Positions 6,898-38,624 are shown, numbered from the stretch's first letter. The stretch is DNA of 61,243 nucleotides from a virus (IMGVR_UViG_3300036850_000032:1-61243), one strand, 5' to 3'. Translations and numbers: made by a program. The notes: a model not told the origin generated them from the letters alone.

Positions 6898-7343
6898 CAG
6901 AAGAGGAACTTGAAAATGTTCCCGTCTGAGTCTTTCGCGATGCCAAAGCCGTGGCGTGTCCCGGCACCCGTGACGAACTCCAGTTGGACGGTACGGCCGG
7001 TGGCGCACGTGGCTAGCCCTTGGCCCGGATTCTGGCTACCGCCGGGCGACACCGTGAGCGCGGACAGGTAAATGGCGCCGTATTCAGACATCAGACTGCC
7101 GCTCGTGTAGCCGACACCGGAGCCCGCGGCCGACGCCCAGCGGCCGACACACGCATCGGCAGGAGGCAGGGTAAAGGTCAGCTTGCCTGAGCCGCCGAAC
7201 ATGACGCCATCGGCCTTGACGTTGATGACCGGCGCGGGGCGGGTGAGACTCATGGGACCTTCAACGGGTATCATGGTGGCATGGAGTGAGCAGCCCGCGA
7301 GCGCGGCCGTGAGGACGATGACGGCGAATAGTCTGCGGGTCAT
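6897..7343 (-). CDS. lipoprotein in immunity/integration region (superinfection-exclusion candidate)
   Basis: MTRRLFAVIVLTAALAG|C lipobox; co-oriented with cI and int. Confidence 0.75.
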   Translation of the reverse strand: MTRRLFAVIVLTAALAGCSLHATMIPVEGPMSLTRPAPVINVKADGVMFGGSGKLTFTLPPADACVGRWASAAGSGVGYTSGSLMSEYGAIYLSALTVSPGGSQNPGQGLATCATGRTVQLEFVTGAGTRHGFGIAKDSDGNIFKFLF

Positions 7344-24654: not shown

Positions 24655-25200
24655 ATGTCAGACAAGCCGCTGACGCCGAAACAGGCGCGTTTCGTGGCCG
24701 AATACCTCATTGACCTGAACGCGACCCAAGCCGCGATCCGTTCCGGGTACAGCGCGAAGACCGCGGCTGAGCAAGCTTCCCGCTTGTTAACCAATGTCAA
24801 GATTGCCGAAGCGGTCGCCATAGGCCAAGGCGCTGCGCTCAGAGCCGCTGGTGTGACCGCTGAGCGGGTCATGCTGGAGGCTGCACGTCTGGCCTTTTCC
24901 GACGTGCGCGGCCTTTTTGACGCGGAGACAGGCCGACTACTGGATGTGTCCGCGCTGAGTGAGGATATGGCGCGGGCGGTGGCCTCCGTTGAGGTGTTGC
25001 GCGAGAAGTCCACCCGGCGCGTCGGCGAGGATACCGAGACAGACACTCAAGAACAAGTGATGAAAATCCGCGTGTGGGACAAGCCGCGCAGTCTGGAGCT
25101 GCTCGCGCGGTGCCTCGGAATGCTGAAGGATAGGGTGGAGCACGGCGGCTCAATCGCGTTCATCAAGAAAATCGAGCATGTCCACGAGCCCGGCGCCTAG
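24655..25200 (+). CDS. terS: terminase small subunit
   Basis: LTPKQARFV.EYLIDLNATQAAIR.GYS.KTA...ASRLL; IA/LAFSD; K...DK..LELL. Confidence 0.93.
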   Translation: MSDKPLTPKQARFVAEYLIDLNATQAAIRSGYSAKTAAEQASRLLTNVKIAEAVAIGQGAALRAAGVTAERVMLEAARLAFSDVRGLFDAETGRLLDVSALSEDMARAVASVEVLREKSTRRVGEDTETDTQEQVMKIRVWDKPRSLELLARCLGMLKDRVEHGGSIAFIKKIEHVHEPGA

Positions 25201-26608
25201 CGATACCTGTCGCATGATTTGGCGCGGGAAGCACTCTGGCGCCCTCCTTGATACCACCACGCGCGAACTTGACATCGAAGGCGCCGTGCGCGCCGGCAAG
25301 ACTACCGTCTGCCTCTGGCGTGAACTGAACGCGTGTCTGGAACATCCTAGTATCTACGGTCTCCTAGCGCGGTGGACAGACACCGGCGTGTATGGGCTGG
25401 TGCTCCCCATCTGGCGCCGCATCTGCGAACAAGCTGGCGTCGCACTGAAGTGGCATCCCGATGAGGAGTACGACGAGCTGCCCAATGGTAGCCGCATGTA
25501 TGTGCGCGGGTTGAAAAGCCAGGACGCCACGCTGCGCTACAGCAAGTTCCGCGGGCTGACGCTCTCGAGAGTGTACGTGGATCAGGCTGAGGAAGTGCCG
25601 CAGGACGTGTATCTTGAACTGGCCGCGCGTCTCAGCCAAGCCGGATTCCCCCATCAGATCACGATTTCGCCGCAGTCGGTCGCGAATGACCACTGGATTG
25701 CCAAGGAGTTTCCCGAGGATAACCGCTTCCTGCCGCATCGCCGACTGCTGCAGTTGTCCGTGTACGACAACGCGCACAACCTTAGTGACGAGGTCATTCC
25801 GGCCCTGAAACGGCTGTATCCGCCTGAGCATCCTCAACATCGGACGCTGCTGCTGGGCTTGCGTGGGCTCAACGTCATCGGGGAGCCGGTCTACAAGGGC
25901 GCGTTTGTGCGGGCGATCCACGAGGCGACGGCTGAGTATGATCCGTCGCTGGCGCTCGAAATGGCCTTGGACTTCGGCAAGCACCACCCCTGCGCGGTGT
26001 TCCGCCAAGTGTCAAGCCTCGGCCAAGTGCGGTATCTGGGCGGGATTCTGGGCCAACAGCTGTATCTAGATGACTTTCTCGACATCGTGTTGCAGTATCG
26101 GGCGCAGTGGTTCCCGCAGCCGGTGGAACTCCGGGAGTGTATGGATCCGGCTGGGGCTGCGGACACCTCCCACGGGACGGATGGCGCGATTGTGACGCTG
26201 CGCAAGCGCGGGATGAAGCCGGTCTATGTGGAGGGGGCCAACTCGCCCGCGGTCCGCTTGGCGATGGTGGAACGGCTGGCAAGCCTGATGCGGAAGCGGG
26301 CCGCCAACCGGCAGGAGGCCCTGATCGTGAGCAATTCTGAGCGCTGGCTGAGGATTTCGGAGCAAGCGACGTTGGTGGATCGGTTCGTGGCGGATGCGTT
26401 CGAGGCGGGCTACGTCTGGGATCAGCACATGGTCTCAGTGGGGTCAAAGCAGATGCGCAAGCCGAAGAAGGACGGCTGGTATGAGCACGGGATGAACTGC
26501 TGCGAGTACCTGGAGTGCAACTTTGGCTCCGCGCCGCCGGTCAAGGAGCCCCCGAAGCGGGAGAAGCGGCCCCCGTTACAGGCGGGCCGTCAAGGGTGGA
26601 TGGCCTAA
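25178..26608 (+). CDS. terL: terminase large subunit
   Basis: Walker A GAVRAGKT, Walker B VYVDQAEE, nuclease LDFG..HP, DPAG; follows terS. Confidence 0.9.
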   Translation: MSTSPAPSDTCRMIWRGKHSGALLDTTTRELDIEGAVRAGKTTVCLWRELNACLEHPSIYGLLARWTDTGVYGLVLPIWRRICEQAGVALKWHPDEEYDELPNGSRMYVRGLKSQDATLRYSKFRGLTLSRVYVDQAEEVPQDVYLELAARLSQAGFPHQITISPQSVANDHWIAKEFPEDNRFLPHRRLLQLSVYDNAHNLSDEVIPALKRLYPPEHPQHRTLLLGLRGLNVIGEPVYKGAFVRAIHEATAEYDPSLALEMALDFGKHHPCAVFRQVSSLGQVRYLGGILGQQLYLDDFLDIVLQYRAQWFPQPVELRECMDPAGAADTSHGTDGAIVTLRKRGMKPVYVEGANSPAVRLAMVERLASLMRKRAANRQEALIVSNSERWLRISEQATLVDRFVADAFEAGYVWDQHMVSVGSKQMRKPKKDGWYEHGMNCCEYLECNFGSAPPVKEPPKREKRPPLQAGRQGWMA

Positions 26609-26613
26609 CCCCT

Positions 26614-26886
26614 ATGTCAGACATCACATTAACGGACACATCAGACAGCACCTCCGACACTGCAGCCGACGTGGATCGCCTGCTGACGGCGTCCCGCGGG
26701 GCGCATGAGCGCGCGAAGTCGGCACGCCATCACAAGCGCCCGGATGCGCTAGCCCTACTCATAGAAGCGCGCGATCTGCGGGTGCAGGCGCACCAGCTTG
26801 ATCCAGAGCACACGTCCCCGGCCTGGGCGTTGGAGGAGACGAGCCACGCGGCCTATATGGCGTTCTATCAGCAGAAGGTGCCGTGA
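26614..26886 (+). CDS. hypothetical protein
   Basis: ORF directly after terL. Confidence 0.55.
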   Translation: MSDITLTDTSDSTSDTAADVDRLLTASRGAHERAKSARHHKRPDALALLIEARDLRVQAHQLDPEHTSPAWALEETSHAAYMAFYQQKVP

Positions 26887-26888
26887 GC

Positions 26889-26918
26889 TTGTGGCTGTGA
26901 TTGTGGTATTGTGTGGGA
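26889..26918 (+). promoter_or_regulatory. extended -10 promoter with tandem 6-bp repeats
   Basis: TTGTGG-CTGTGA-TTGTGG then TATTGT (26907-26912) 6 nt before GTG 26919. Confidence 0.5.
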
Positions 26919-27164
26919 GTGGCGAAATCGGAGCCCACACACGAGTCCGTCTCGGTTCGACTCCCGCGTGGGTTGTGGGCGCGGGTACGGAGGCGGTCGT
27001 TTGATGAGCGCGTGCCGGCGTCGGTGCTCGTCGGGTTGGCAGTTGAGCGATGGCTGGCGAGCGTCGAGCAGTCGCCCGCGCGTCGAGCGCCCGTTGATGC
27101 TCAGGTGAAGGTTCGGCAGACGACCATGGAACCGGGCGGCTACACCTACGAGCCGGAAATCTGA
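26919..27164 (+). CDS. ribbon-helix-helix regulator
   Basis: ESVSVRLPRGLWARVRR.SFDE..PAS.LV..AVE.WL. Confidence 0.65.
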   Translation: MAKSEPTHESVSVRLPRGLWARVRRRSFDERVPASVLVGLAVERWLASVEQSPARRAPVDAQVKVRQTTMEPGGYTYEPEI

Positions 27165-27610
27165 TGGCTGGCCGCGGTTGGAAGCGGGTCGACGTAGAAA
27201 CCGCCAACTACGGTGGCCTTTATGCCATCTGTGAGGGGAGACGCGTAGTTTACATTGGGCAATCGTCGATGCTTTCACGGCGGCTGGCCGCGCACGCCTA
27301 CTTTCGAGCTACGAGTCGCGATGTCCGATGGGTGAAAGCGTGCGTGGTCGAGGACCGTGGAGAGCGAGAGGTGGCCGAGGAACGTCTCATCAGGAGACTG
27401 TGCCCACCACTAAACCTCGCCCTTAACGCGCGTCGGCGGCAACAACATGACGATCCAGAAACGAGCCGATTCGCTGCTGAAGTGACGAAGCAACAAGCCC
27501 TCCGGATCGACCCGGCCCTATGGCGTCGTGCTCGCATGAAGGCGATCATGGACGGGCACTCCATGAACACCGTGGTGCAGGAGTTGCTGATGATGTGGTT
27601 GGACGAGTGA
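27164..27610 (+). CDS. GIY-YIG nuclease fused to C-terminal RHH domain
   Basis: GLYAI...VVYIGQS..L.RRL..H...E..LI..L.P.LN; LRIDPALWRRA...A..DG.SMN.VV.ELL..W. Confidence 0.7.
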   Translation: MAGRGWKRVDVETANYGGLYAICEGRRVVYIGQSSMLSRRLAAHAYFRATSRDVRWVKACVVEDRGEREVAEERLIRRLCPPLNLALNARRRQQHDDPETSRFAAEVTKQQALRIDPALWRRARMKAIMDGHSMNTVVQELLMMWLDE

Positions 27611-27638
27611 CTGTGAACTGTCGGCGGTTTCGGGAGGC

Positions 27639-27902
27639 GTGATGGGCATGATCCTCGCTGGCGGTCCTGATTCGCGCTGCACCTATGGGCTCCACGTCTA
27701 CGTGCCGCATGACGTGACATGCGAGTGTGGGGCGGAGCCTACGCCAATGGGCCGTCGTCAAGGGCTGGTGAGCCATCCAGAGCGGGGTCCGATGTTGGAA
27801 GAGGCCGCCGTGTCCGAGCGCGCGATGCTCAACTACGATCTGGAGTATCGACGGGCGATGGCACGATACGACGCCTTTGTCGCCTCCACAAAGGACGAGT
27901 AA
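27639..27902 (+). CDS. hypothetical protein
   Basis: GGAGG RBS; CECG. Confidence 0.5.
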   Translation: MMGMILAGGPDSRCTYGLHVYVPHDVTCECGAEPTPMGRRQGLVSHPERGPMLEEAAVSERAMLNYDLEYRRAMARYDAFVASTKDE

Positions 27903-27907
27903 TCCTC

Positions 27908-28315
27908 ATGGCGGAGACCTTCGATCAACAACTCGCCCGGTTGCGTTCGCTCGCTGCCATCGAACTGGATGACGATCCGATGGACCCTATCGGCGTGGCG
28001 GATCAAGCTGCCCTCGCGGAACTGCTCCGCCGCTGGGATGCGATCCATGCGCCCAAAGTACCGCGTCCGTGGACGGCTGACGAGATGCGCGTGGCTGAGT
28101 GCGATGCGCGCCGGATCCTCTCGCAGTACCCGCCGACGATAGATGGTGCGTCTCAGGCAACGAGTTCAGCTGAGTGGCGCCAGCATCCCGTGTTGCAAGG
28201 CAAGGCAGCCATCATGAATACGATGAACGAGAAGGCCGTCGAGTTCTGCGCGCTGGTCGATCTGGTGACGGCCCCAGCTTCATTCCCGGCGTATATTGCG
28301 ATCGATCCGCGTTGA
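27908..28315 (+). CDS. protein sharing a domain with ejection protein 50152-51288
   Basis: ARRILSQYPPTIDGASQATSSAEW vs AGRILSRYPATSQGVRQAMQDPEW, 13/24 identical. Confidence 0.65.
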   Translation: MAETFDQQLARLRSLAAIELDDDPMDPIGVADQAALAELLRRWDAIHAPKVPRPWTADEMRVAECDARRILSQYPPTIDGASQATSSAEWRQHPVLQGKAAIMNTMNEKAVEFCALVDLVTAPASFPAYIAIDPR

Positions 28316-28340
28316 CACCGGCACCAGTACACCCTAGCAT
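28312..28340 (+). promoter_or_regulatory. sigma70-like promoter
   Basis: TTGACA-N17-TAGCAT. Confidence 0.6.
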
Positions 28341-28357
28341 GAGGGAGATTCCAGACC

Positions 28358-28609
28358 ATGAAAGTCTTGCGCTTGTTGATCGTCTTGCGCTGGTGGTTGC
28401 CACTGGTATTCATGCTCGGTGTCCTGTGTAGTCTTGGCGCGTGTCACACCAATTACGATCCTGATCAGCATCCTGACGGGGTGTACGCACATAACATCGT
28501 CATTCGTGACGTGCAGGGCGAGTGTTGGCGTGTACTTGTTCTGTCGAGCAAACATACCTATCTGGAACATCTCAAGCCCGAAGCGTGCGAACGGCGGACC
28601 GAGCGATGA
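28358..28609 (+). CDS. putative lipoprotein
   Basis: Basic N-terminus, hydrophobic core, SLGA|C lipobox; GGGAG RBS. Confidence 0.6.
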   Translation: MKVLRLLIVLRWWLPLVFMLGVLCSLGACHTNYDPDQHPDGVYAHNIVIRDVQGECWRVLVLSSKHTYLEHLKPEACERRTER

Positions 28610-28649
28610 ACAGGCGATCGTTTCTGCCAGCAGCATAAGGGAGCATCCC

Positions 28650-28919
28650 GTGAACAAAACGTGGAGCGATGTGGAAGAGGCAGCGATGGGGCGCCCCTGG
28701 ACTGACGCCCCGTTTTTGACGCTCGCCTCGCCTTATCGTGCGCTGTTTCATCAGGCGGTAACGATGGTCGAACTCGGCCAGATGACACGCGAAGAGGCGC
28801 TGATTGCCCTCTCGCTCGCGCTGCTGGATGGTAACGAGCGCCAGCACGCGGAACTAGTTGACGCCTACAACCGCCGTCCGCCCGCGCCGATCATTCTACA
28901 GGGGATCTCCCATGAATAG
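28650..28919 (+). CDS. hypothetical protein
   Basis: AAGGGAG RBS, GTG start. Confidence 0.5.
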   Translation: MNKTWSDVEEAAMGRPWTDAPFLTLASPYRALFHQAVTMVELGQMTREEALIALSLALLDGNERQHAELVDAYNRRPPAPIILQGISHE

Positions 28920-29232
28920 GCGATCATTTCTCCTGTCGGTGGCGGCGGTACCCCTCGCGACCGTGAGCGTGCGGCAGTCGGTGCGTCCGCGCTCAGCCTC
29001 GCGGCGCATCATTGACGGCGTCACGGCCGACGAGCGGAAGGCGCACGCGATGCGGGTGCTCGTCCATTACCCGGCGACGTTAGCGGGTCTCCGTGCAGCG
29101 TTTCACTCAAAGGAATGGGGCTCTGATCCTTGGCTGCGCGATGCGTGGCTGGATGGACGGCGCGGTATTCTGACGTGGCCAGACGGCTTCGCGGCCGATC
29201 TGCTGATGCCGTGGGGTCAGGACGCGCAGTGA
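28912..29232 (+). CDS. Tat-signal protein, paralogue of an ejection-protein domain
   Basis: MNRRSFLLSVAAVPLA twin-arginine motif; 18/41 identities to 50686-50808. Confidence 0.7.
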   Translation: MNRRSFLLSVAAVPLATVSVRQSVRPRSASRRIIDGVTADERKAHAMRVLVHYPATLAGLRAAFHSKEWGSDPWLRDAWLDGRRGILTWPDGFAADLLMPWGQDAQ

Positions 29233-29552
29233 CTCCTGAAGTCCGCGCTGCGCTCGGTGTCACGGCGCTTGCCATCCTCGCCCGCTATGCCCCTCCCCCA
29301 CTAGATGTGCAGGAGTTCCGCCGCCGTGCCGCCTTGGAAGGCGATCAGCGAGTCGCCGCCAAGCGGAACTACGAACTGAATCAGAGCGTGCTACAGGCCA
29401 TGAACGATCCGGAGTGGAAGCGGCATCCGGTCCTGCAGCGGGCGTTTTTCGATGCGGCGAACGCGCGGATCCAGGTGGATGACTGGTCGTTGGAGGTGAT
29501 TGCGTGGGCGGATCGGCTGGCGGCCATCGGACAGGAGCCAGTGAAGTCGTGA
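29229..29552 (+). CDS. third member of the ejection-domain paralogue family
   Basis: ILARY...VLQAMNDPEWKRHPVLQRAFF vs ILSRY...VRQAMQDPEWLADADLSRATF. Confidence 0.6.
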   Translation: MTPEVRAALGVTALAILARYAPPPLDVQEFRRRAALEGDQRVAAKRNYELNQSVLQAMNDPEWKRHPVLQRAFFDAANARIQVDDWSLEVIAWADRLAAIGQEPVKS

Positions 29553-29803
29553 GTGCTCCCAAGTCCAGTGGTCGCACGGTTGACGATTACGAGTGGCTGC
29601 ACCTTGCGGCCCTCATGATGCGCGACGGACGCACGCAGGCAAACCTGAATGAACTGGAGGCGCGTCGTTACAGGCAGTGCAGAATAGCCGAAGACGCCGA
29701 CGTGCAACGAATCCTCCATGTCCCGGACGCGCGATGCCCTTTGCAAGAGCCGCACTTCCCGCACGAATGCGGACGGCGTTTTGATCTGGGTGGGTTCAAG
29801 TGA
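29549..29803 (+). CDS. hypothetical protein
   Basis: GTGA overlap; C...H..H.C. Confidence 0.45.
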   Translation: MSAPKSSGRTVDDYEWLHLAALMMRDGRTQANLNELEARRYRQCRIAEDADVQRILHVPDARCPLQEPHFPHECGRRFDLGGFK

Positions 29804-30024
29804 GCGTCTGTCCACGGTGCGGGGCCGATCGACCCGCGAAGTGTCCGGCCTTTTTCCAAGTTCACAGAGACAACGGCACGGGAACTGAGTACGTGTGCAG
29901 TTTGCCGGAAGATCATTCATGGCCGCATCGGGCACTGCACGCGAAGACAGGCGCGGTCGTGGCATCATGGGGATTTACGCCAGGCAACGCAGTGAATGGG
30001 ACGGTGGCCGCGATTCATGGCTAA
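29800..30024 (+). CDS. small Cys/His protein
   Basis: CPRC...C...H..PH. Confidence 0.5.
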   Translation: MSVCPRCGADRPAKCPAFFQVHRDNGTGTEYVCSLPEDHSWPHRALHAKTGAVVASWGFTPGNAVNGTVAAIHG

Positions 30025-30508
30025 CCTCTCCATCCCCCCTGACTTCCAGACGTTTGCCCAGCAGCTGGCGGCGCGTTCTTCGGACGGGATCGAGCAGTTC
30101 CGTCAGCATATCCTGTCCGATGATCTGCTGCTCTGTGAAGTCGTCGCCGGCGGGAAGTTTACCTGGATGCGTGAGTTTTTCAACTACACGCGGGCCAACG
30201 GGTTCGTTGCCCCGACCGACGTGGGCGAGCAGTTGTACGTCCACTTCTGCGAGCAGGTCCGGCGCCGCTTCAATGCCGGCGAGACGGATCCCAAGAAGGT
30301 GGCTGGGATGGTGCTGGACAAGGCCGAGGTGAAGACACCTCTGACGGAACTGGAGAAGGATCGGAGCTGGAAGATCGAGACGGAAGCCTCAGAGGACGGG
30401 TTCCGCTCGCGGTATGGTCCAGCGGGCGATCCCAATGCGGAACTGGACAAGGTAATGGACCGGGGGCGAACGGTGGCGCCGATCGTGGTGAAGACAGACA
30501 AGGAGTAG
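30017..30508 (+). CDS. hypothetical protein
   Basis: 163-aa ORF with phage-like composition. Confidence 0.6.
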   Translation: MANLSIPPDFQTFAQQLAARSSDGIEQFRQHILSDDLLLCEVVAGGKFTWMREFFNYTRANGFVAPTDVGEQLYVHFCEQVRRRFNAGETDPKKVAGMVLDKAEVKTPLTELEKDRSWKIETEASEDGFRSRYGPAGDPNAELDKVMDRGRTVAPIVVKTDKE

Positions 30509-30512
30509 CGCC

Positions 30513-30782
30513 GTGGCAGTGGATGAGATCATCGAGATTGACGAAGACGGCAAGGTTCACGGCAACGACCTTGAGCACGAGGTAGCCAGCGTTTTGAATC
30601 GGTTCAGCGCGGAGAACCCATCGAACACGCCGGATTGGATTCTCGCGCAGTTTCTGCTCGGCTGTCTGGCGGCGTGGAATCAGGGCATCCAGCAACGTGA
30701 GACGTGGTACGGTCGGGACGCGAGGCCAAGGGGCGGCAGTGGCCTGGCGCCGATGGACCTCGCATCGAAGACACAGGAGTAA
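30513..30782 (+). CDS. conserved phage hypothetical protein
   Basis: LNR.S.EN.SNTPD.ILA.FL..CL pattern; AAGGAG RBS. Confidence 0.7.
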   Translation: MAVDEIIEIDEDGKVHGNDLEHEVASVLNRFSAENPSNTPDWILAQFLLGCLAAWNQGIQQRETWYGRDARPRGGSGLAPMDLASKTQE

Positions 30783-30787
30783 CCCCG

Positions 30788-30973
30788 ATGGACATGCGCA
30801 CAGGTGAGACGTACCCCTCGTTGAAGGAGGCACTGGAGGCCGGAGTGCCGGAGTCAGACATCGCGCTCGTGGAGCAGGAACCCGGCAAACCGCCGCGCGT
30901 GACGTTCCCGAAGCATCAGCCGTTCAAGTCCTTCAAGAACCGCGTCGTGACAGGAGAGCAGCATGGCGATTGA
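30788..30973 (+). CDS. hypothetical protein
   Basis: AGGAG RBS; MDMRTGETY. Confidence 0.6.
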   Translation: MDMRTGETYPSLKEALEAGVPESDIALVEQEPGKPPRVTFPKHQPFKSFKNRVVTGEQHGD

Positions 30974-31211
30974 CATGGGCGGCATCAAACGCGCCCCGAT
31001 GGATCTTCCCCCTCATCCGCGAGCGGACAAGGTGACGATCACCCCGGCACAGGGCGGCGGGTTTGCGGTGGAGTGCCAGCGGGACGGCGGCGTGGAAACG
31101 TCGGTGCTACCGGACTTCAACGCCACGCTGGACTACGTTGCTTCGGAGCTTGGGGGAGGGGAACAGGCCCAGCCCGAGATGTCGATGGGGCCACCTGAGG
31201 AGATGGCCTAG
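30963..31211 (+). CDS. small acidic hypothetical protein
   Basis: AGGAG RBS. Confidence 0.6.
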   Translation: MAIDMGGIKRAPMDLPPHPRADKVTITPAQGGGFAVECQRDGGVETSVLPDFNATLDYVASELGGGEQAQPEMSMGPPEEMA

Positions 31212-31214
31212 CTT

Positions 31215-31490
31215 GTGGCGAAACACAACTTGGCGCTTGGGGCGCCAAACTGTCACAACATCGTGCCGGGTGACGATGTGGCACCATTCGACTCGCGTCC
31301 AACCTGCCGGCTGACTATTGAGTGCTCGGATGGTACCGTCGCGTGGGCCGACATGACGATCCCCGAGGAACTCCGGGACTTGGATGGCGACATGTACCGA
31401 GAGCGGTATCTGGTGCCTGCCGCAGGTGCTGCGTGGTCAATGATGCGGAAGCACTTGCGGGACCACTATCGATTCAAGCTCCAGAATTGA
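31215..31490 (+). CDS. hypothetical protein with coat spine-helix-like segment
   Basis: EELRDLDGDMYRERYLVPA vs coat EETTQVDDYRSRYIQPG. Confidence 0.5.
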   Translation: MAKHNLALGAPNCHNIVPGDDVAPFDSRPTCRLTIECSDGTVAWADMTIPEELRDLDGDMYRERYLVPAAGAAWSMMRKHLRDHYRFKLQN

Positions 31491-31516
31491 CAGGCACAAG
31501 TACACGCGCGTAGGAT
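31487..31516 (+). promoter_or_regulatory. sigma70-like promoter
   Basis: TTGACA-N18-TAGGAT; spacer shares GGCACnAGTACAC with the promoter at 28312. Confidence 0.55.
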
Positions 31517-31790
31517 GAGAGCCGAGCCCTTGAACGAACCGACACGTACAGCCGTCCCGTGCGATTGCGGATCATGGCCGCACCGTTTTGGTTGCGCGTT
31601 CCTCAAGTGGTGCGTGGCTGAGCGCAAGGCCGGGTTCTGTTCTCGGTGCCACAAGGCGCTCATCAGCGAGCGCGACGGACACATCGTCTACTGCCCCACC
31701 GGATGCTCTCACGAGATGAGCGGCGAGGCCGCCCTTGACTTCATGGACGCGACCGGATCCGGTTGGATCCGAAAGCTGGTCACTCCGTGA
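31515..31790 (+). CDS. Cys-rich Zn-binding protein
   Basis: CDC..H..C, CSRC, C..GC. Confidence 0.5.
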   Translation: MRAEPLNEPTRTAVPCDCGSWPHRFGCAFLKWCVAERKAGFCSRCHKALISERDGHIVYCPTGCSHEMSGEAALDFMDATGSGWIRKLVTP

Positions 31791-31999
31791 CGCCTCCTGA
31801 CGCCTTCACCCGCTGGGCGCAGTCGAACGCCATCCCGCAGGAATATTGGCATCTCTGCCGGCAAGCGTGGGAGGCTGGCGTTCGCCATCGGCATCTCAAC
31901 GCGCCTTTCACCATTGCCGATGCGACGGGCTGGTCAGAGACCGATGCGATCGCCACCACGGGATGCAAGGCGACCGTCTCCAGTCGATTGGACACATGA
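31787..31999 (+). CDS. hypothetical protein
   Basis: GTGA overlap. Confidence 0.45.
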   Translation: MTPPDAFTRWAQSNAIPQEYWHLCRQAWEAGVRHRHLNAPFTIADATGWSETDAIATTGCKATVSSRLDT

Positions 32000-32271
32000 C
32001 TGTGGGCTACGCCGCTCGCACCAACCTGCGCAGTCCTGACGGCAAAGACACCGCCGCCGCGTACGCCGCTCAGTTACAGTCCACCGTCCGCCAGCTCAAG
32101 ACACCCCGGCAGTATCAGCGCTTTCTGGATACCTTCCCCGCTGAGACACGAGACGATGTCCGGCAACTCACCAAAGCCTATTGCGAGTGGGATCTCGACG
32201 CCATCAGGGCAGAGGACGCATTGATCGCACGGGCGGCGACGGTGGCGGCGCGGACAGCAGGTGGCACATGA
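31996..32271 (+). CDS. hypothetical protein
   Basis: ATGA overlap. Confidence 0.55.
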   Translation: MTVGYAARTNLRSPDGKDTAAAYAAQLQSTVRQLKTPRQYQRFLDTFPAETRDDVRQLTKAYCEWDLDAIRAEDALIARAATVAARTAGGT

Positions 32272-32462
32272 CGATCGAAGTAGCACTCGCGAGCGGTTCA
32301 GTTGAAGCCTTCACGGCCGACGCGCCCATTCGCGTGGATGTGGATGAAGGCCGCGCGCTCATCATCAGCTACTCGCACGGGGAAGTCATTGCCGTGTTCG
32401 CGCCGGGCGTGTGGAGTTCGGCCAAGAAGCAACCGGATCGCGTGAGGACGCTGGACGAATGA
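32268..32462 (+). CDS. small beta-rich hypothetical protein
   Basis: ATGA overlap; VIAVFAPGVW. Confidence 0.55.
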   Translation: MTIEVALASGSVEAFTADAPIRVDVDEGRALIISYSHGEVIAVFAPGVWSSAKKQPDRVRTLDE

Positions 32463-32614
32463 CACTCCCCGCGAAGCCACCGAAGCGCAACCCAAACGAT
32501 ACCACCTTCCGCAACCTGAATGCCTTGAAGGTGCGGGTGGCGAAGTTGGAAAAGCTCGTGGCGTATCTGGCGAGTTGTCACGAGCCGAAGAAGGTCGGCG
32601 CGAAGCAGACGTAA
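32459..32614 (+). CDS. small basic coiled-coil protein
   Basis: ATGA overlap; RNPNDTTFRNLNALKVRVAKLE. Confidence 0.55.
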   Translation: MTLPAKPPKRNPNDTTFRNLNALKVRVAKLEKLVAYLASCHEPKKVGAKQT

Positions 32615-32625
32615 CAGAGTTTCGA

Positions 32626-32765
32626 TCCTCTCAGTGACGCGGACTAATTACCCGCGCTAAAGGCACTCCCGAGCCGCACTGAGGAGGAACAACGGGACAC
32701 GACAGCACGGGGCTGTGTGACGACTCTGCGATGACAGAGGCGCTTACACAGCCCCTTTTGTTTTG
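32626..32765 (+). ncRNA. structured intergenic RNA/leader ending in a terminator-like hairpin
   Basis: Multi-stem TCCTCTCAGTG...CACTGAGGAGGA enclosing CGCGG-ACTAATTAC-CCGCG; long stem GGGGCTGTGT...ACACAGCCCC followed by TTTTGTTTT. Confidence 0.5.
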
Positions 32766-32787
32766 TCCCGACTTTTTGGAGGCCGAC

Positions 32788-33354
32788 ATGATCAAGAGAC
32801 GGTCGTTTCTGACGGCGCTGACGGGTCTGTTCGTGGTGCCCGCTGTTCTCAAAGGCAGCACGCCACGCGTGGATCCATCAGTCGTCGTGGATCGAGTGCC
32901 GGTGACGCCCCTGCCACCCGCAGGATGGCCGCAGCGTGCGGTCAGATGGTTCACGGACGAACTCGGCCGACAACTTGCCGATATGCGCCCACAGTTGGAC
33001 CCCGCGCTGGATCGCACCCTGCCGTACACGCCAAGTGAAGCGGTGCAGATCAATATCGCTGCTCGCGATGGCGCTCGAACAGGCCCCGCCTTGGGGCCGT
33101 CTGCGATGGGCAACCAGCGACTGACGCCGTGGTCCACCGAAGACGACATTCGTTACGCCGCGCGCCATGTCGCGGAGGCGTGTCGGCGCGAGGGATTGAC
33201 GCGGTTCGGCCATCTTCCGCTTCCCTCCGGCATGTATGCGGTGGAGCGGTGTTCCTCACAATCGCTCGGCGTGTCGGTCAGGCTGTGCGTGAACTACGAC
33301 ATTTCCGCTGACATGCAGGCCCTGCGTTTCGACGTGTTAGGAGCACGCGGGTAA
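32788..33354 (+). CDS. Tat-signal truncated paralogue of the major capsid protein
   Basis: GGAGG RBS; MIKRRSFLTALTGLFVVPA; C-terminal 42 aa 22/42 identical to the coat C-terminus. Confidence 0.75.
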   Translation: MIKRRSFLTALTGLFVVPAVLKGSTPRVDPSVVVDRVPVTPLPPAGWPQRAVRWFTDELGRQLADMRPQLDPALDRTLPYTPSEAVQINIAARDGARTGPALGPSAMGNQRLTPWSTEDDIRYAARHVAEACRREGLTRFGHLPLPSGMYAVERCSSQSLGVSVRLCVNYDISADMQALRFDVLGARG

Positions 33355-33355
33355 G

Positions 33356-35755
33356 GTGGCTGAAGGCGCTGATCTCGACATCCGCCCCGCCCGTTCGGTG
33401 CAACTCGTCACCGCTGGCCGGGACGTGTCTCCCGAGGATCAGCGAGACAGCAAAGCCGCCGAAGCGGAGCGCCTCCGCAAGCAAAAGCTTGTGGAGGAAG
33501 GCATCCGCCGCTGGAAAGCCTGCTCGGAAGCCGAAGCCAAGCAACGCCAGCGCGAGAAAGAGGATCTGGAGTTTGCCCGCGCGCTCCCCGAAGATCAGTG
33601 GCCCGAGGAACTGCTCAGAACCCGTGCCGGCGGGACGATCAACGGCATCGTGACGGCGGCGCGTCCCTGCCTCGTCATTCCCAAACTCAATGCCCCAGTT
33701 GATCAGACGGTCAACGAAGCGCGCAATGCCCGACTGAGTATCCGGGTCAAGCCCAAGGGGCAATTCTCGAACAAGAAGGGCGCCCAACTCCGCCAGGAGA
33801 TGATCCGTGCGATCGAGGTGGACAGCAACGCCACCCAGCCGCGGCTGTGGGCACTCAACCGAGCCGCCATCTGCGGCCGGGGCTGGTATCGCGTCGTGAA
33901 GGAGTACGCCGCCGATGGCGACTTCCTGATCGATCTCGTCACGAAGGGCATTCCGAATCAAGGCTCGGTCTACTGCGATCCCTTCGCGAATGAACCAGAC
34001 AAGTCCGATGCCGAGTTCATGTTTGTGACCTCGGACTTCGCGCCAGCCGAATACAAGCGGCGGTTTCCGAAGAGTGAACTGGCGGAGTCAAGCGCCGATG
34101 GCGACCTGTTCTCCACGACGGCGGATCTGCCTTTGGATTGGGTGAACGAGAAGCATTTCCGGGTGGCGGAGTACTTCTACGTTGAGCACAAGGATCGCAT
34201 CCTGATCGAAACCCCGCTAGAGCTCGGCGGCAAGCATCGTTTCGCGGATGAACTCCCGCCCGAGTTGCAAGCGGCCATCCCGAAGGGCATCAAGACGCGT
34301 ACCGTCGACCATCGCACCGTCCGCTGGTGCCTGATGAACGCCGTCGAGATCCTCGAGGAAGAGCAGTGGGAAGGCCGGACGATCCCGATCATCCCCGTGG
34401 TCGGCTCTGTCTCCAATGTGGAAGGCGAGTGGGTCTACAAAGGCATCGTCAGCAACGCCAAGGATGCCCAGCGCTCGTACAACTACGGCCGTTCAGCGCA
34501 AGTCGAGAGTGTCGGACTCGCCCCGCGCGCGCCGTGGGTCATTGCCGAGGGGCAAGTGAAGGGCTACGAGGACGTGTGGGAGCAGGCGAATACCTACGGC
34601 GGCAATTACCTGCCGTATGTGCCCACGAGTCTGGAAGGCCAGCCCGTTCCCCCGCCGCAACGCAATACCGTCGAGCCTGCTATCCAGGCGATCACTTTGA
34701 TGGTGCGCGAGGCGGACAACGACATCAAGGCCACGACAGGCCGGTACGATCCCAGTCTCGGCAATCTCGATCCGAACGCCCGTTCGGGCAAAGCCCTCAA
34801 GGAACTAAAACAGCAGGGCGAGCTCGGCTCCAGTCACTTCCTGGACAACCTCGCCAACGTGTCGATGCGGCGGGAAGCCCTGATCTATCTGGAGATGCTC
34901 TATCCGGTCTATGGCACGACACCGGGCCGGATCGCGCGGTTGCTCGGCGAGGAAGAGGAAGACGCCCGCGAAGTGATGCTCGGCAAGCCATTCGTGCCCG
35001 ATGAGGACGGCCGTCCAGTCGAAGCGCCGGCGGATCATCCCGCCGCCCAGCGCTACGAGCTGGACGAAGACGGCGAATACGCCGTGGTGGTGAGTGTCGG
35101 CAAGTCCTCGCAGACGCAGCGGGAAGACAACGCGGAACTGCTCAAGTCCATCTTTGAAGCGGCTCCGCAAGTCGCCGAGGCTGGCGCGGACATCTTCGTG
35201 GAGCAGTTGGAAGGCCCGGTCGCGGAACGGCTCGCTAAGCGCTTACGGAAGCTCAATCCGGCCCTCGCCGATGAGGACGAGAGCGGAGCGAAGCCGCCGG
35301 TCGATCCCGCGATGCAGCAACAACTCCAGCAGCTGCAGCAGGCGAATCAGCAGTTGGAAACCTCGCTGAAGCAAACCGTCGAGGAACTGAAGACGCAGAA
35401 GGCAGCCGCGGACGCTGAGGCCCAAGTCAAGCGCGAGGAGATTCAGGCCAAGGCCCAAGCCGCGCAGGCGGAGCAGGCCGCGAAGCAGCAGACCGCGCAG
35501 ATGGAACTGGAAGCCAAACAGCGTCAGTTTGAGGCGGAACTCGCGGCGAAGCGCGAGATGTTTGCAATGGAGCTGGCGAGCAAGAAGGAACTGGCGCTGC
35601 TGGAGATGGAGAACGATCTTCGCAAGGCGCAGATCGCATCGGATGCGAAGGCGCAGCAGTTGGAGATGCAGGCACAGGCCGCGCGCGAGTCACAGGTGCG
35701 GGATCAGGCGTTTCAGGCAGTGAGTGAGAAGCCGGAGATGGGAGCAGGCGCGTGA
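33356..35755 (+). CDS. P22-like portal protein
   Basis: RPCL.I.KL, CG.GW.RV, V..DP....D.SDA, VAEYF, G.V...KD.QR.YNY, SGKAL...QQG...F.DNL, long C-terminal helical barrel. Confidence 0.92.
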   Translation: MAEGADLDIRPARSVQLVTAGRDVSPEDQRDSKAAEAERLRKQKLVEEGIRRWKACSEAEAKQRQREKEDLEFARALPEDQWPEELLRTRAGGTINGIVTAARPCLVIPKLNAPVDQTVNEARNARLSIRVKPKGQFSNKKGAQLRQEMIRAIEVDSNATQPRLWALNRAAICGRGWYRVVKEYAADGDFLIDLVTKGIPNQGSVYCDPFANEPDKSDAEFMFVTSDFAPAEYKRRFPKSELAESSADGDLFSTTADLPLDWVNEKHFRVAEYFYVEHKDRILIETPLELGGKHRFADELPPELQAAIPKGIKTRTVDHRTVRWCLMNAVEILEEEQWEGRTIPIIPVVGSVSNVEGEWVYKGIVSNAKDAQRSYNYGRSAQVESVGLAPRAPWVIAEGQVKGYEDVWEQANTYGGNYLPYVPTSLEGQPVPPPQRNTVEPAIQAITLMVREADNDIKATTGRYDPSLGNLDPNARSGKALKELKQQGELGSSHFLDNLANVSMRREALIYLEMLYPVYGTTPGRIARLLGEEEEDAREVMLGKPFVPDEDGRPVEAPADHPAAQRYELDEDGEYAVVVSVGKSSQTQREDNAELLKSIFEAAPQVAEAGADIFVEQLEGPVAERLAKRLRKLNPALADEDESGAKPPVDPAMQQQLQQLQQANQQLETSLKQTVEELKTQKAAADAEAQVKREEIQAKAQAAQAEQAAKQQTAQMELEAKQRQFEAELAAKREMFAMELASKKELALLEMENDLRKAQIASDAKAQQLEMQAQAARESQVRDQAFQAVSEKPEMGAGA

Positions 35756-37229: not shown

Positions 37230-38624
37230 ATGAGACATCATGCCTATGATTCCGATCCTCCGCGTTCTCGACTCGCACTGATTACCTGGCTCGCTCTCGC
37301 GGTCTGCGTGACGGCGGCGAGTCTGGTCCTCAGTCACTACACGTCGGACTGGTCCGGCGTGCTCGCGCTCAATACCCTCATCACCCCGACGTGGGTCATG
37401 CGTGAAGTCGGCCGGCTGCTCGTCAACAATCTGAAGTTCTCCGCGAACGTCAGCCGCAGTTACGACAGCCAATACAAGCGCATGGGCGCGAAGGTGGGCA
37501 ACACGGTCAATGCCCGTCTCCCCTTCCGGCCGCGCGTCTCCAAGTCGCAGGCGATCAACATCCAGTCGGTGGCGGATCAGATCGTCCCGATCACCCTCAC
37601 CGATCAGGCCAACACCGCCGTGGACTTCTCCACGATGGAAGAGACCACGCAGGTCGATGACTACCGGAGTCGCTACATCCAGCCCGGCGTTGAGTCCCTC
37701 GTCAACACGATGGATGCCGATGGCCTCAACCGGATGTATAAGGCGACGTTCTGGACGGTCGGCACACCCGGCACCGTGCCAGGCTCCACCGGCACCAACC
37801 CGCAAGCCGCCTATCTCACCTATCTGCAAGCGGGCGTGAAGCTCTCGAACAGCGCGGTTCCGCCGGATGGACGCATTGCCGTGTTGAACCCCAACATGCA
37901 CGCGTACCTCGCGGCTGGCGGCCTGACGATCTTCAACCCGCAGGCGCAGATGAGCAAGGTGTATCGCTCAGGGCAGTTCAGCGGGCATGCGCTGGGCTTC
38001 TCGGCGTGGTACGAAGATCAGAACGTGTTCCCGCACGTCATCGGGACGGCGACGGGCACGCCGCTCATCAACGGGGCGTCGCAGACCGGCTCCAGCATCA
38101 TCACCGATGGCTGGACGGCGAGCGTCACGATCCTGCTGCAGGGCGATGTCATCCAGTTCGCGGGCGTCAACGCCGTGAACCCGATGTCCTACCAGAGCAC
38201 GGGGCAGTTACAGGATTTCGTGGTCACGGCGGATGTCACCTCGGACGGATCGGGCAATGCGACCATCCCGGTCTACCCCGCGCTCACCACGAGTGGGCAG
38301 CTCCAGACCGTGACCGGTTCGCCCGCGAACAACGCCGCGATCACCGTGTTCGGGACGGCGCAAGCGGGTCTCGCGGCGCAGGCGGGCATCACCACGCCGC
38401 AAGCGCTGATGTATCACCCCGACGCGTATGCGCTGGTCATGGCGGATCTCGTGCTGCCGAAGGGCTTGTGGATGAGCGAGCGGATCTCCAGTGAGGAACT
38501 GGCGGTCTCGGTGCGCTTCCTCAAGCAATACGACATCATGACCGACCTGTCGGCGGCGCGCGTCGATGTGCTCTACGGCTGGAAGGCCGTGAGACCAGAG
38601 ATGGGGGCCAGGCTCGCAGCCTGA
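37230..38624 (+). CDS. P22-like major capsid (coat) protein with N-terminal hydrophobic extension
   Basis: NTLITP.W..RE...L.NNL.F...V.R.YD, G.KVG.T...R.P, DD...RYI.P, I-domain GDVI.FAGV.AVNP, QYDI..D....R.DVLYG...VRPE. Confidence 0.93.
   Translation: MRHHAYDSDPPRSRLALITWLALAVCVTAASLVLSHYTSDWSGVLALNTLITPTWVMREVGRLLVNNLKFSANVSRSYDSQYKRMGAKVGNTVNARLPFRPRVSKSQAINIQSVADQIVPITLTDQANTAVDFSTMEETTQVDDYRSRYIQPGVESLVNTMDADGLNRMYKATFWTVGTPGTVPGSTGTNPQAAYLTYLQAGVKLSNSAVPPDGRIAVLNPNMHAYLAAGGLTIFNPQAQMSKVYRSGQFSGHALGFSAWYEDQNVFPHVIGTATGTPLINGASQTGSSIITDGWTASVTILLQGDVIQFAGVNAVNPMSYQSTGQLQDFVVTADVTSDGSGNATIPVYPALTTSGQLQTVTGSPANNAAITVFGTAQAGLAAQAGITTPQALMYHPDAYALVMADLVLPKGLWMSERISSEELAVSVRFLKQYDIMTDLSAARVDVLYGWKAVRPEMGARLAA

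What the first reader, a model, noticed from the sequence alone, without database searches (positions are those of the whole stretch)
26614..33354. Candidate virion-mimic cassette: ~6.7 kb between terL and portal encodes exported and truncated paralogues of the phage's own virion proteins
Seen: terL and portal, normally adjacent, are separated by ~25 small ORFs with their own promoters and RHH regulators. At least five are derived from this phage's structural genes: two coat-derived (32788 and, more weakly, 31215) and three ejection-domain-derived (27908, 28912, 29229). The only two twin-arginine signal peptides I found in the genome sit on one member of each family, and a lipoprotein (28358) lies among them. 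Inference: this may be a dedicated system that places decoy or dominant-negative virion-protein fragments in the cytoplasm and periplasm. Possible roles are superinfection exclusion (blocking DNA ejection or assembly of related phages) or titration of host defence sensors that recognise capsid or ejection proteins. I do not know a described system with this organisation.
Basis: partly seen in the sequence, partly recalled or inferred. Interest (0 to 1): 0.88.

Follow-up and report, generated by a model that had tools for sequence, protein, structure and literature searches.

The report
Phage accessory island with virion-gene paralogues
A temperate P22-like soil phage carries a 6.7 kb island of small genes between its terminase and portal genes, and four of them really are copies of pieces of its own coat and DNA-ejection-module genes (two with export signals), but what they do is still untested.

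Summary
The core observation holds; the functional reading is untested.

The window is an IMG/VR viral contig of a temperate (integrase-bearing) P22-like phage. terL and portal are 6,747 bp apart, with about 22 small + strand ORFs between them.

**Confirmed (4 of the 5 claimed derivatives)**
- ORF 32788 ends in a 43-residue copy of the coat protein's conserved C-terminal segment (52% identity; profile E 5e-7 over 930 ORFs).
- ORFs 27908, 28912 and 29229 carry the helical half of a ~77-residue domain. This domain is the conserved core of the protein at 50152-51288, which lies in the ejection/internal-virion module. An independent profile gives E 3e-6 to 1.5e-5.
- That domain defines an uncharacterised phage family: 69 clusters, no Pfam or PHROG match, a confident AlphaFold model, no PDB fold match.
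- ORF 29229 has three orthologues at 57-76% identity.
- ORFs 28912 and 32788 start with RRSFL twin-arginine-type signals. A third, vestigial copy lies at 28606.

**Not confirmed**
- 31215 as coat-derived.
- The cassette's "own promoters".
- The ribbon-helix-helix (RHH) regulator calls are weak.

**Context**
In relatives the terL-portal junction is a variable accessory-gene hotspot (0-2.6 kb).

**Reading**
Best reading: a moron island built by domain duplication and shuffling. A dominant-negative or superinfection-exclusion role is plausible but unshown.

The parts
26614..33354 (+). Accessory-gene island of about 22 small ORFs between terL and portal
   Evidence: ORF list. The + strand frames score best for coding. 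No DNA match in the phage collection. No cassette ORF matches any of 54 related loci, except the 32731 ORF against the coat gene of L054.
25178..26608 (+). Large terminase (left border)
   Evidence: phrog_979 E 1.7e-7; 46% identical terL in L014.
33356..35755 (+). P22-type portal (right border)
   Evidence: phrog_156 E 3.4e-95; tblastn hits to annotated P22-like portals.
27908..28315 (+). Domain paralogue A (135 aa, no signal peptide). Family match at about 28103-28201.
   Evidence: Independent family HMM E 1.5e-5; pairs with the 74-aa protein P0064 in the domain tree.
28358..28609 (+). Small lipoprotein-like ORF (83 aa, hydrophobic N-terminus, LGAC)
   Evidence: Translation; no family hit. 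The lipobox is read by eye only.
28606..28638 (+). Vestigial third copy of the twin-arginine signal start (MNRRSFL..., 10 codons, then TAA), overlapping the stop of 28358 by ATGA
   Evidence: 27-nt repeat family D1 at 28605, 28911 and 32790; three-frame translation. A contig of run X1 covers 28540-28690 with no differences.
28650..28919 (+). Small ORF (about 89 aa) with a GTG start behind AAGGGAG; its stop overlaps the start of 28912
   Evidence: Sequence; coding frame; no family hit when scanned as part of 28419-28916.
28912..29232 (+). Domain paralogue B (106 aa) with an N-terminal RRSFL twin-arginine-type signal. Family match at about 29032-29160.
   Evidence: HMM E 5.2e-6; blastp to P0001 E 3.2e-5; genome tool E 2.5e-4. 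Signal features; PF10518 only 14.3 bits.
29229..29552 (+). Domain paralogue C (107 aa, no signal), GTGA-coupled to 28912. Family match at about 29364-29468.
   Evidence: HMM E 2.9e-6. Orthologues P0073, P0017 and P0074 at 76, 60 and 57% identity, with 44 invariant columns.
32788..33354 (+). 188-aa ORF: RRSFL signal, then about 115 residues with no detectable relatives, then the coat-like C-terminus
   Evidence: GGAGG lies 7 nt before the ATG. Only itself was found among 5.8 billion clusters at near length. No Pfam, PHROG or NCBIfam hit.
33211..33339 (+). Coat-like segment of ORF 32788 (residues 142-184)
   Evidence: All six columns that are invariant in 13 coat proteins are kept. No DNA-level similarity; dS 1.48, dN 0.59.
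37230..38624 (+). Major coat protein (P22 type). The source-like segment is 38445-38573.
   Evidence: PF11651 E 6.1e-33; phrog_283 E 1.9e-63; PDB 8skg 'putative coat protein' E 4e-4.
50152..51288 (+). P0001, a 378-aa protein in the ejection/internal-virion module. Conserved domain at about 50674-50892.
   Evidence: HMM E 2.4e-34. Neighbours hit phrog_598 'DNA ejection' (E 4.4e-4 upstream, 6.4e-12 downstream) and phrog_6651 'internal virion protein'. P0001 itself has no Pfam, PHROG or NCBIfam family.
26901..27610 (+). Two ORFs with weak ribbon-helix-helix signals; the second also has a weak GIY-YIG N-terminus
   Evidence: phrog_2639 E 0.072; phrog_6506 E 1.7e-4; PF05534 20.4 bits (cut-off 21); PF01541 E 0.023.
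5572..7008 (-). Tyrosine integrase (shows a temperate lifestyle)
   Evidence: PF00589 E 4.4e-19.

Best explanation
The 6.7 kb block is a hypervariable accessory-gene (moron) island at the terL-portal junction of a temperate P22-like phage. It has grown partly by duplicating and shuffling pieces of the phage lineage's own virion-module genes.

**Shown**
- Three island genes are single-domain paralogues of the conserved alpha/beta domain of P0001. P0001 sits among the ejection and internal-virion genes.
- One island gene fuses a twin-arginine-type signal and an orphan region to a 43-residue copy of the coat protein's C-terminal beta-strand segment.
- The signal-coding start occurs three times, once as a 10-codon remnant.

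**Inferred**
- These genes are maintained by selection.
- The domain-only paralogues, one probably exported and two cytoplasmic, bind whatever partner the P0001 domain binds. They would then modulate or compete with DNA-delivery proteins.
- The most likely version is exclusion of related superinfecting phages by the lysogen.
- The role of the coat-like tail of ORF 32788 is unknown.
For: - **Paralogy is significant with independent profiles**.
- **The P0001 domain is a real, widespread family.** There are 69 representative clusters at E<=1e-3 among 1.84 billion proteins, and 67 of the 69 carry the core domain. The AlphaFold model has pLDDT 88.3 and pTM 0.79.
- **The small paralogues group with P0001.** They fall in the same 15-leaf clade (support 0.91) as P0001 and its closest long relatives.
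- **29229 has three orthologues**.
- **The coat fragment is old but conserved.** dS is 1.48, there are 22 of 42 identical residues, and all 6 invariant residues of the segment are kept. Its nearest known relative is this phage's own coat protein (52%). The only 3 hits in the phage collection are 36-38% identical, and all lie under coat genes.
- **Gene starts suggest expressed genes.** SD sequences and overlapping start/stop codons are present.
- **An integrase is present**.
- **The junction is variable in relatives.** The gap is -102 to 1,423 bp in 35 of the 36 related loci with a detectable terL (54 loci examined). It is about 2.6 kb in L005, which holds about 8 small ORFs including a lipoprotein-like one.
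- **Precedent.** P22 SieA shows that prophages of this group do exclude relatives by targeting ejection proteins (PMC10883804, abstract read).
Against: - No functional, expression or localisation data exist.
- P0001 is called an ejection-module protein by position only.
- Only the helical half of the domain (HMM positions about 4-48 of 77) is recognisable in the small paralogues.
- The two signal-bearing genes have no orthologue in the databases searched, so they could be recent, lineage-specific accidents.
- Curated Tat models do not reach their cut-offs, and the host is unknown.
- The conserved residues in the coat fragment could have come from a recent copy of an unsampled foreign coat gene, rather than from selection on the fragment.
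- A periplasmic coat fragment has no evident partner.
- 18 of about 22 island ORFs have no link to virion genes.
Confidence: 0.5

Rival explanations
1. The island is a dedicated, co-regulated virion-mimic system. Its coat-derived and ejection-derived fragments act as decoys or dominant negatives in cytoplasm and periplasm. Their targets would be rival phages or host defence sensors that recognise capsid or ejection proteins.
For: Both families of virion-derived fragments sit in one island, and each has a member behind the same RRSFL signal type. The frames are intact and conserved. The phage is temperate.
Against: - Only 4 of about 22 ORFs derive from virion genes; 31215 fails.
- There is no statistical support for the cassette's own promoters, and the regulator calls are weak.
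- Defence sensors of capsid proteins act in the cytoplasm, whereas the coat fragment carries an export signal.
- The coat piece is only 43 residues of a roughly 400-residue fold.
- The island position is a general hotspot with unrelated content in relatives.
Confidence: 0.12
2. Recombination debris. The coat-like tail of 32788, the vestigial signal start at 28606 and perhaps 28912 are by-products of illegitimate recombination during moron insertion. They have no function of their own. Only 29229 (and perhaps 27908) are functional genes, with a role unrelated to mimicry.
For: - A 10-codon remnant of the signal start lies 306 nt upstream of its full copy, showing that such scars exist here.
- 32788 and 28912 have no orthologues.
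- The coding score drops over the last ~100 nt of 32788.
- The AlphaFold model of 32788 is poor, with pLDDT 48.7.
Against: - The 32788 frame is open for 188 codons and has a strong SD.
- The fragment is in frame, and its synonymous sites are saturated relative to the coat gene while all invariant residues are kept.
- 28912 is translationally coupled on both sides.
Confidence: 0.2
3. The small paralogues are accessory virion or assembly components, not mimics. Under this reading the shared domain is a module for incorporation into the procapsid or ejection complex, or for chaperoning P0001. It would work like the shared targeting sequences of other phages' internal proteins.
For: The domain is the best-conserved part of a family found in proteins of 220-370 aa. 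Two of the three paralogues lack any signal peptide. They lie within the late-gene orientation, between two packaging genes.
Against: One paralogue carries an export signal, which is incompatible with packaging into capsids. The island is absent from relatives' morphogenesis modules. There are no data on the virion proteome.
Confidence: 0.15

Closest known systems
P22 SieA superinfection exclusion (Leavitt et al., mBio 2024, PMC10883804; abstract read)
   Same: A protein encoded by the prophage of a P22-like temperate phage, located in the envelope. It blocks DNA delivery by relatives, and escape mutations map to ejection proteins gp16 and gp20.
   Different: SieA is described as an inner-membrane protein, not as a paralogue of ejection proteins. 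Here the candidates are soluble-looking single-domain copies of an ejection-module domain, one behind a Tat-type signal. No exclusion phenotype is known for them. I did not compare sequences with SieA.
Moron / accessory-gene islands of temperate phages (general concept; recalled, no call)
   Same: Small, fast-turnover genes inserted between conserved late genes, often encoding envelope proteins. The content differs between relatives at the same junction.
   Different: This island is unusually large for the site: 6.7 kb against 0-2.6 kb in 36 relatives. Part of its content derives from the phage's own virion-module genes.
P22 coat protein gp5, P-domain segment 358-416 (PMC9965877, section 3.2 passages read)
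   Same: The 43-residue segment of ORF 32788 aligns to the conserved region 16-58 residues from the coat C-terminus. By offset, and by the near end-to-end PF11651 match, this corresponds to about gp5 370-415, the beta-sheet part of the P-domain (inference).
   Different: ORF 32788 lacks the N-arm, E-loop, spine helix, A-domain and I-domain. It matches 41 of 398 profile positions, so it is not a coat protein.
The uncharacterised P0001 domain family
   Same: The three island ORFs share its helical half and cluster with the P0001 subfamily.
   Different: Family members are mostly 220-370 aa with Pro/Gly-rich linkers and a C-terminal helix. The island ORFs are 106-135 aa, carry a single domain, and have a diverged beta half.
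Capsid-size or assembly redirecting proteins of phage satellites (P4 Sid, SaPI CpmB; recalled, no call)
   Same: Small mobile-element proteins that interfere with another phage's capsid assembly by binding coat protein.
   Different: As far as I recall, those are not coat fragments and carry no export signal. Nothing here was tested against them.

Membership tests
P22 coat protein family (PF11651) - for ORF 32788 | Match to the whole HK97-type coat profile above Pfam's gathering score | tested here: not met
   No Pfam hit at E<=1 for the 207-aa form. The coat-family HMM matches only positions 342-382 of 398. hhalign is confident only over the last ~50 residues.
P22 coat protein family - segment homology only | Significant similarity to the conserved C-terminal segment, with its invariant residues kept | tested here: met
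   E 5.8e-8 and E 5.4e-7 at Z=930. L143, R165, D175, R180, D182 and L184 are invariant across ORF 32788 and 13 coat proteins.
P0001 ejection-module domain family (unnamed) | Match to a family profile built without the window's sequences | tested here: met
   29229 at 2.9e-6, 28912 at 5.2e-6, 27908 at 1.5e-5; no other ORF of 930 scores below E 1.
P0001 ejection-module domain family (unnamed) | Full domain including the beta half (the DKIDFGG...GVPVG.VDV region of the consensus) | tested here: not met
   Matches cover only HMM positions 4-48 of 77. The beta half aligns by eye only.
Twin-arginine (Tat) signal peptide | RR-x-F-L motif near the N-terminus, a moderately hydrophobic h-region, and a basic residue in the c-region | tested here: met
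   MNRRSFL... and MIKRRSFL... are followed by hydrophobic stretches (12-residue Kyte-Doolittle means 2.19 and 2.31) and then by R or K.
Twin-arginine (Tat) signal peptide | Score above the curated cut-off of a Tat signal model | tested here: not met
   PF10518 gives 14.3 bits against a cut-off of 22.7 for 28912. There is no hit for 32788 in Pfam or NCBIfam.
Twin-arginine (Tat) signal peptide | Tat-dependent export in a host that has TatABC | not testable with these tools
   The host is unknown. No dedicated Tat or signal-peptide predictor was available.
Superinfection-exclusion proteins that act on DNA ejection (SieA-like function) | Expressed from the prophage and blocks DNA entry of related phages | not testable with these tools
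   No RNA holder was listed, and there is no isolate or host.
Ejection / internal virion protein (for P0001) | Homology to a known ejection protein, or presence in virions | tested here: inconclusive
   P0001 has no PHROG, Pfam or NCBIfam family. Both flanking genes hit phrog_598 'DNA ejection', and the giant downstream ORF hits phrog_6651 'internal virion protein'. The evidence is positional only.
Ribbon-helix-helix (Arc/MetJ-type) regulators (26901, 27164 C-terminus) | Profile match above cut-off | tested here: inconclusive
   phrog_6506 E 1.7e-4; PF05534 20.4 bits against 21; phrog_2639 E 0.072.
Variable accessory-gene hotspot | Same junction, different size and content in relatives | tested here: met
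   A terL hit was found in 36 of 54 related loci. Gaps run from -102 to 1,423 bp in 35 of them and 2,592 bp in L005. The gap ORFs are unrelated to the window's.

The most novel reading that the evidence does not exclude
The island encodes a new kind of phage-against-phage weapon built from the phage's own parts. Domain-only copies of an ejection-module protein would be placed in the periplasm (via Tat) and in the cytoplasm. There they would poison assembly of the DNA-delivery conduit of related superinfecting phages. A Tat-tagged copy of the coat P-domain strands would bind rival coat subunits and mislocalise them, possibly by Tat 'hitch-hiking'.
Probability: 0.12. Interest if true: 0.85.

Novelty: new variant of a known kind. 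Interest (0 to 1): 0.5.

Why it matters
If the domain-only paralogues do compete with the ejection machinery, this would be a self-derived, dominant-negative route to superinfection exclusion. It would be mechanistically distinct from SieA-type membrane blockers.

It would also give a handle on a phage protein family that currently has no annotation: 69 clusters, a confident predicted fold, no PDB match.

Even without that, the locus is a clear example of how moron islands are built. It shows duplicated signal-peptide starts, a vestigial copy, and in-frame capture of structural-gene segments.

The practical value today is modest. It amounts to a testable hypothesis and a new domain family to annotate in P22-like ejection modules.

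Tried and rejected
**Relatives of the cassette**
- blastn of the whole block against the phage collection gave no match.
- The search for related loci gave nothing for ORF 32731, A2 or P0017 in viral contigs.
- It also gave nothing for P0017 or A5 in metagenome contigs, or for A2 in genome contigs.
- A7 in genome contigs returned one 10.8 kb contig, L059. Its 10 ORFs gave no useful PHROG hit.
- The genome search with A10 on L059's genome gave no match.
- The genome search with A3 on 401 genomes of that phylum matched only the seed genome.
- I therefore could not see the genomic context of any orthologue.

**Structure of ORF 32788**
- AlphaFold with a partial alignment gave pLDDT 48.7.
- Foldseek against the PDB gave nothing at E<=0.001. 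The P22 procapsid coat appeared at rank 4 with E 0.33 over 47 columns, which adds nothing beyond the sequence match.
- phmmer against PDB sequences gave only a chance repeat-protein hit, E 0.37.
- The protein atlas gave no usable hit.

**Fold of the P0001 domain**
- No PDB match at E<=0.001.
- BFVD returned only a family member.
- A profile search against PDB sequences found nothing below E 0.2.

**Binding**
- Complex prediction of the P0001 domain with 29229 returned 'no answer' (score 0.03, mark 0.32). This is not evidence either way.

**Expression**
- No RNA holder was listed.
- The single DNA holder, X1 (a soil metagenome), has short contigs identical to parts of 28341-30197. It may be the source sample.

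**Rejected ideas**
- Assembly chimera at the 32788/portal junction: there is no DNA similarity to the coat gene.
- Frameshift joining the 28606 signal remnant to the 28650 ORF: no hydrophobic region follows in any frame.
- tRNAs: none in the window.

**Literature**
- 'superinfection exclusion' + 'ejection protein' + 'P22': 15 papers hold all three terms. I read the abstract of PMC10883804.
- 'twin-arginine' + 'prophage' + 'superinfection exclusion': 2 papers hold the terms and 1 was listed. It is an unrelated Bacillus signal-peptide screen; listing only.
- 'major capsid protein' + 'decoy' + 'anti-defense' + 'phage': 4 papers, reviews and a phage description; listing only.
- P22 coat domain terms: I read passages of PMC9965877.
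- These four searches found no description of Tat-tagged virion-protein fragments. They are not exhaustive, and supplementary files were not seen.

Full report
**What the window is.**
The window is a complete IMG/VR virus record of 61,243 bp. It is linear, and CheckV estimates it at 84% complete.
- It carries a P22-type morphogenesis module:
  - small terminase 24655-25200;
  - large terminase 25178-26608;
  - portal 33356-35755 (phrog_156, E 3.4e-95);
  - scaffold 36055-37209;
  - coat protein 37230-38624 (phrog_283 E 1.9e-63; PF11651 E 6.1e-33);
  - a gp10-like head-completion protein 45797-47278.
- Downstream lies a block of ejection and internal-virion genes. ORFs 49250-50152 and 51261-53570 hit phrog_598 'DNA ejection' (E 4.4e-4 and 6.4e-12). 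A giant ORF of at least 2,062 aa hits phrog_6651 'internal virion protein' (E 4.4e-21).
- A tyrosine integrase (PF00589, E 4.4e-19), an ERF recombinase and a YqaJ exonuclease show a temperate lifestyle.
- The closest portals in GenBank phages and IMG/VR are at most 36% identical. The phage therefore has no close sequenced relative in those collections.

**The island.**
- terL ends at 26608 and the portal starts at 33356.
- The 6,747 bp between them hold about 22 small + strand ORFs.
- A codon-usage log-odds scan trained on the long genes puts the best score in the expected + frames nearly everywhere. It is lower than in the structural genes, and it falls over the last ~100 nt of ORF 32788.
- Starts are credible:
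  - GGAGG lies 7 nt before ATG 32788;
  - AGGGGA precedes ATG 28912, which overlaps the upstream stop;
  - GTG 29229 overlaps the stop of 28912 as GTGA, and its orthologues begin with the same residues.
- Pfam, PHROGs and NCBIfam give almost nothing for the island ORFs. There are weak GIY-YIG and ribbon-helix-helix signals at 27164, a weaker RHH signal at 26901, phrog_31227 (unknown function, E 1.7e-15) at 30513, and phrog_4195 at 32181.

**The coat-derived piece.**
- In an all-against-all blastp of 22 island ORFs against 930 six-frame ORFs of the window, ORF 32731/32788 matched the coat protein. The match was 22 of 42 identical residues, E 5.8e-8. The genome tool found it independently (E 1.2e-7).
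- I built an HMM from the window's coat protein plus 15 relatives taken from related loci. It matches ORF 32788 residues 142-184 at profile positions 342-382 of 398 (E 6.5e-10 for one target; E 5.4e-7 over 930 ORFs).
- hhalign finds nothing reliable upstream of the last ~50 residues.
- There is no DNA-level similarity. Over the 42 codons, dS is 1.48 and dN is 0.59, and only 9 of the 22 conserved residues use the same codon.
- All six columns that are invariant in 13 coat proteins are also kept in ORF 32788.
- In the phage collection the fragment hits only 3 records, each under an annotated coat gene, at 36-38% identity. The phage's own coat protein (52%) is thus the nearest known relative.
- From the offset to the C-terminus and the near end-to-end Pfam match, the segment corresponds to about residues 370-415 of P22 gp5. 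That range lies inside the P-domain beta-sheet segment 358-416 given in PMC9965877 (passages read). This mapping is an inference.
- ORF 32788 is not a coat protein. It is a chimera of a signal peptide, about 115 orphan residues and a coat fragment.
- It has no relative of similar length among 5.8 billion clusters.

**The ejection-module domain.**
- blastp linked 28912, 27908 and 29229 to each other and to the ORF at 50152-51288, which I call P0001 (E 3e-5 to 0.05; E 2.5e-4).
- A word-seeded search with P0001 residues 165-250 found two longer homologues, P0003 and P0004. In these, the region is the best-conserved part between Pro/Thr-rich linkers.
- A profile search of 1.84 billion representatives returned 69 proteins at E<=1e-3, of which 16 were at E<=1e-10. 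These include the window's own 28912 and 27908, and the two homologues that were in the query.
- 67 of the 69 contain the ~77-residue core, mostly in proteins of 220-370 aa.
- None of 49 members has a Pfam or PHROG family.
- AlphaFold on P0001 residues 171-264 with 49 sequences gave pLDDT 88.3 and pTM 0.79. The model has three short helices followed by a three-stranded sheet.
- No PDB chain matched at E<=0.001. BFVD returned only a 663-aa family member.
- As a clean test I rebuilt the HMM from 43 members, excluding every window sequence and the small orthologues, and searched the 930 window ORFs:
  - P0001: 2.4e-34;
  - 29229: 2.9e-6;
  - 28912: 5.2e-6;
  - 27908: 1.5e-5;
  - nothing else below E 1.
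- The matches cover the helical half only (positions about 4-48).
- In a FastTree of the domain, all three island paralogues fall in one 15-leaf clade (support 0.91) with P0001 and its closest long relatives. 27908 pairs with the 74-aa P0064, and 29229 pairs with P0017. The alignment is short, so I treat this as indicative.
- A final word-seeded search with the small proteins found two further 29229 orthologues. The four sequences are 57-76% identical, with 44 invariant columns.
- 28912 has no orthologue in these searches.

**The signals.**
- 28912 and 32788 begin MNRRSFL... and MIKRRSFL.... Each start is followed by a hydrophobic stretch and then a basic residue.
- RR.FL occurs five times in all six frames. 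Three of these are at island ORF starts, against about 0.013 expected in the first ten residues of 90 genes.
- The repeat finder showed that the three starts form one 27-nt family.
- The third copy, at 28606, overlaps the stop of the lipoprotein-like ORF by ATGA. It runs only 10 codons to a TAA. An SD and GTG 28650 then open the next ORF. A contig of run X1 covers this stretch without differences.
- This is a vestigial signal start, 306 nt upstream of its full copy. It is direct evidence that the island was remodelled by duplication and insertion.
- Curated Tat models do not reach their cut-offs. The Tat assignment therefore rests on motif features.

**What failed.**
- 31215 is not detectably coat-derived (E 4.0 and 1.8).
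- Promoter-like sites are no more frequent than in shuffles: 4 against 2.1 +/- 1.8. Terminator-like sites are fewer: 3 against 7.8 +/- 3.3.
- The 'only two Tat signals' statement needs the vestigial copy added, plus an RR-containing lipoprotein signal beside the integrase.

**Context in relatives.**
- Of 54 related loci, 36 had a terL detectable by tblastn upstream of the portal.
- The terL-portal gap is -102 to 1,423 bp in 35 of them and about 2.6 kb in L005. Portal starts were extrapolated from alignments, and many loci are near-duplicates.
- The gaps hold one to about eight small ORFs that are unrelated to the window's. L005 has a lipoprotein-like ORF, and one gap gene is shared by L005 and L014.
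- The junction is therefore a general accessory-gene hotspot, and the window is its largest example among those seen.

**Mechanism.**
Shown:
- paralogy with virion-module genes;
- conservation of one small paralogue family;
- repeated use of one signal type;
- a temperate lifestyle;
- a variable junction.

Inferred:
- The single-domain paralogues bind the same partner as the P0001 domain, and so modulate or compete with DNA delivery.
- One acts outside the cytoplasm and two act inside it.
- The precedent is P22 SieA, which blocks relatives through their ejection proteins (PMC10883804, abstract).

I give the combined reading (shuffled moron island whose paralogues act on the ejection pathway) 0.5, and the full two-family decoy system 0.12. 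The other rivals are recombination debris for the two orphan signal-bearing genes (0.2) and accessory virion or assembly components (0.15).

The coat fragment's conserved residues could also be inherited from a recent copy of an unsampled coat gene.

**Novelty and limits.**
- The four literature searches listed under Tried and rejected found no description of Tat-tagged or domain-only paralogues of virion proteins in such an island. That is not proof of absence.
- The kind of thing (moron island, possible exclusion genes) is known. The self-derived content and the unannotated domain family are new variants.
- Limits: no expression data, no host, no context for any orthologue, a poor model for ORF 32788, and a complex prediction that gave no answer.

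Noticed in passing
window 28606-28638: A 10-codon remnant of the same RRSFL signal start used by 28912 and 32788. It is ATGA-coupled to the preceding lipoprotein-like ORF and ends in TAA just before the SD and GTG of the next ORF. It looks like a scar of insertion or duplication.
   Followed up: yes
window 6897-7343 (-): A 148-aa ORF beside the integrase has an RR-containing lipoprotein signal (LAGC lipobox) and a weak YgdI/YgdR lipoprotein hit (E 0.0024). This is a typical position for a lysogenic-conversion or exclusion gene.
   Followed up: partly
window 55057-61242 (+), runs off the end: A giant ORF of at least 2,062 aa matches phrog_19458 'primase' (E 8e-45, residues 975-1198) and phrog_6651 'internal virion protein' (E 4e-21). 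It may be a multi-domain injected protein.
   Followed up: no
window 50152-51288 and proteins P0003-P0071: This is an unannotated phage protein family: a ~77-residue alpha/beta core, Pro/Gly-rich linkers and a C-terminal helix. It has 69 representative clusters, a confident AlphaFold model and no PDB fold match. It is worth a family definition of its own.
   Followed up: yes
L005 4987-7690; L014 5929-6330: The nearest portal relative (L005) has its own 2.6-2.7 kb set of small ORFs between terL and portal, including a lipoprotein-like one. One gap gene is shared between L005 (6234-6620) and L014.
   Followed up: partly
window 27164-27610: A 148-aa ORF combines a weak GIY-YIG nuclease-like N-terminus with a weak Arc/HicB-like ribbon-helix-helix C-terminus.
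   Followed up: no
window 38638-39465: A 275-aa ORF directly after the coat gene has the highest GC3 in the window (0.86) and a weak tail-fibre-like N-terminal match (phrog_9851, E 4e-6). It may be a decoration or fibre protein.
   Followed up: no
window 37230-38624, residues 268-375: The coat protein carries an inserted domain. It matches a solved isolated 'putative coat protein' domain (PDB 6mnt, E 0.0015) and phrog_1302. So it has a P22-type I-domain-like insertion.
   Followed up: partly
window 29800-30024 and 31515-31790: Two small Cys-rich ORFs have zinc-ribbon-like CxxC pairs. The only hits are weak (PF25454, E 0.0014).
   Followed up: no
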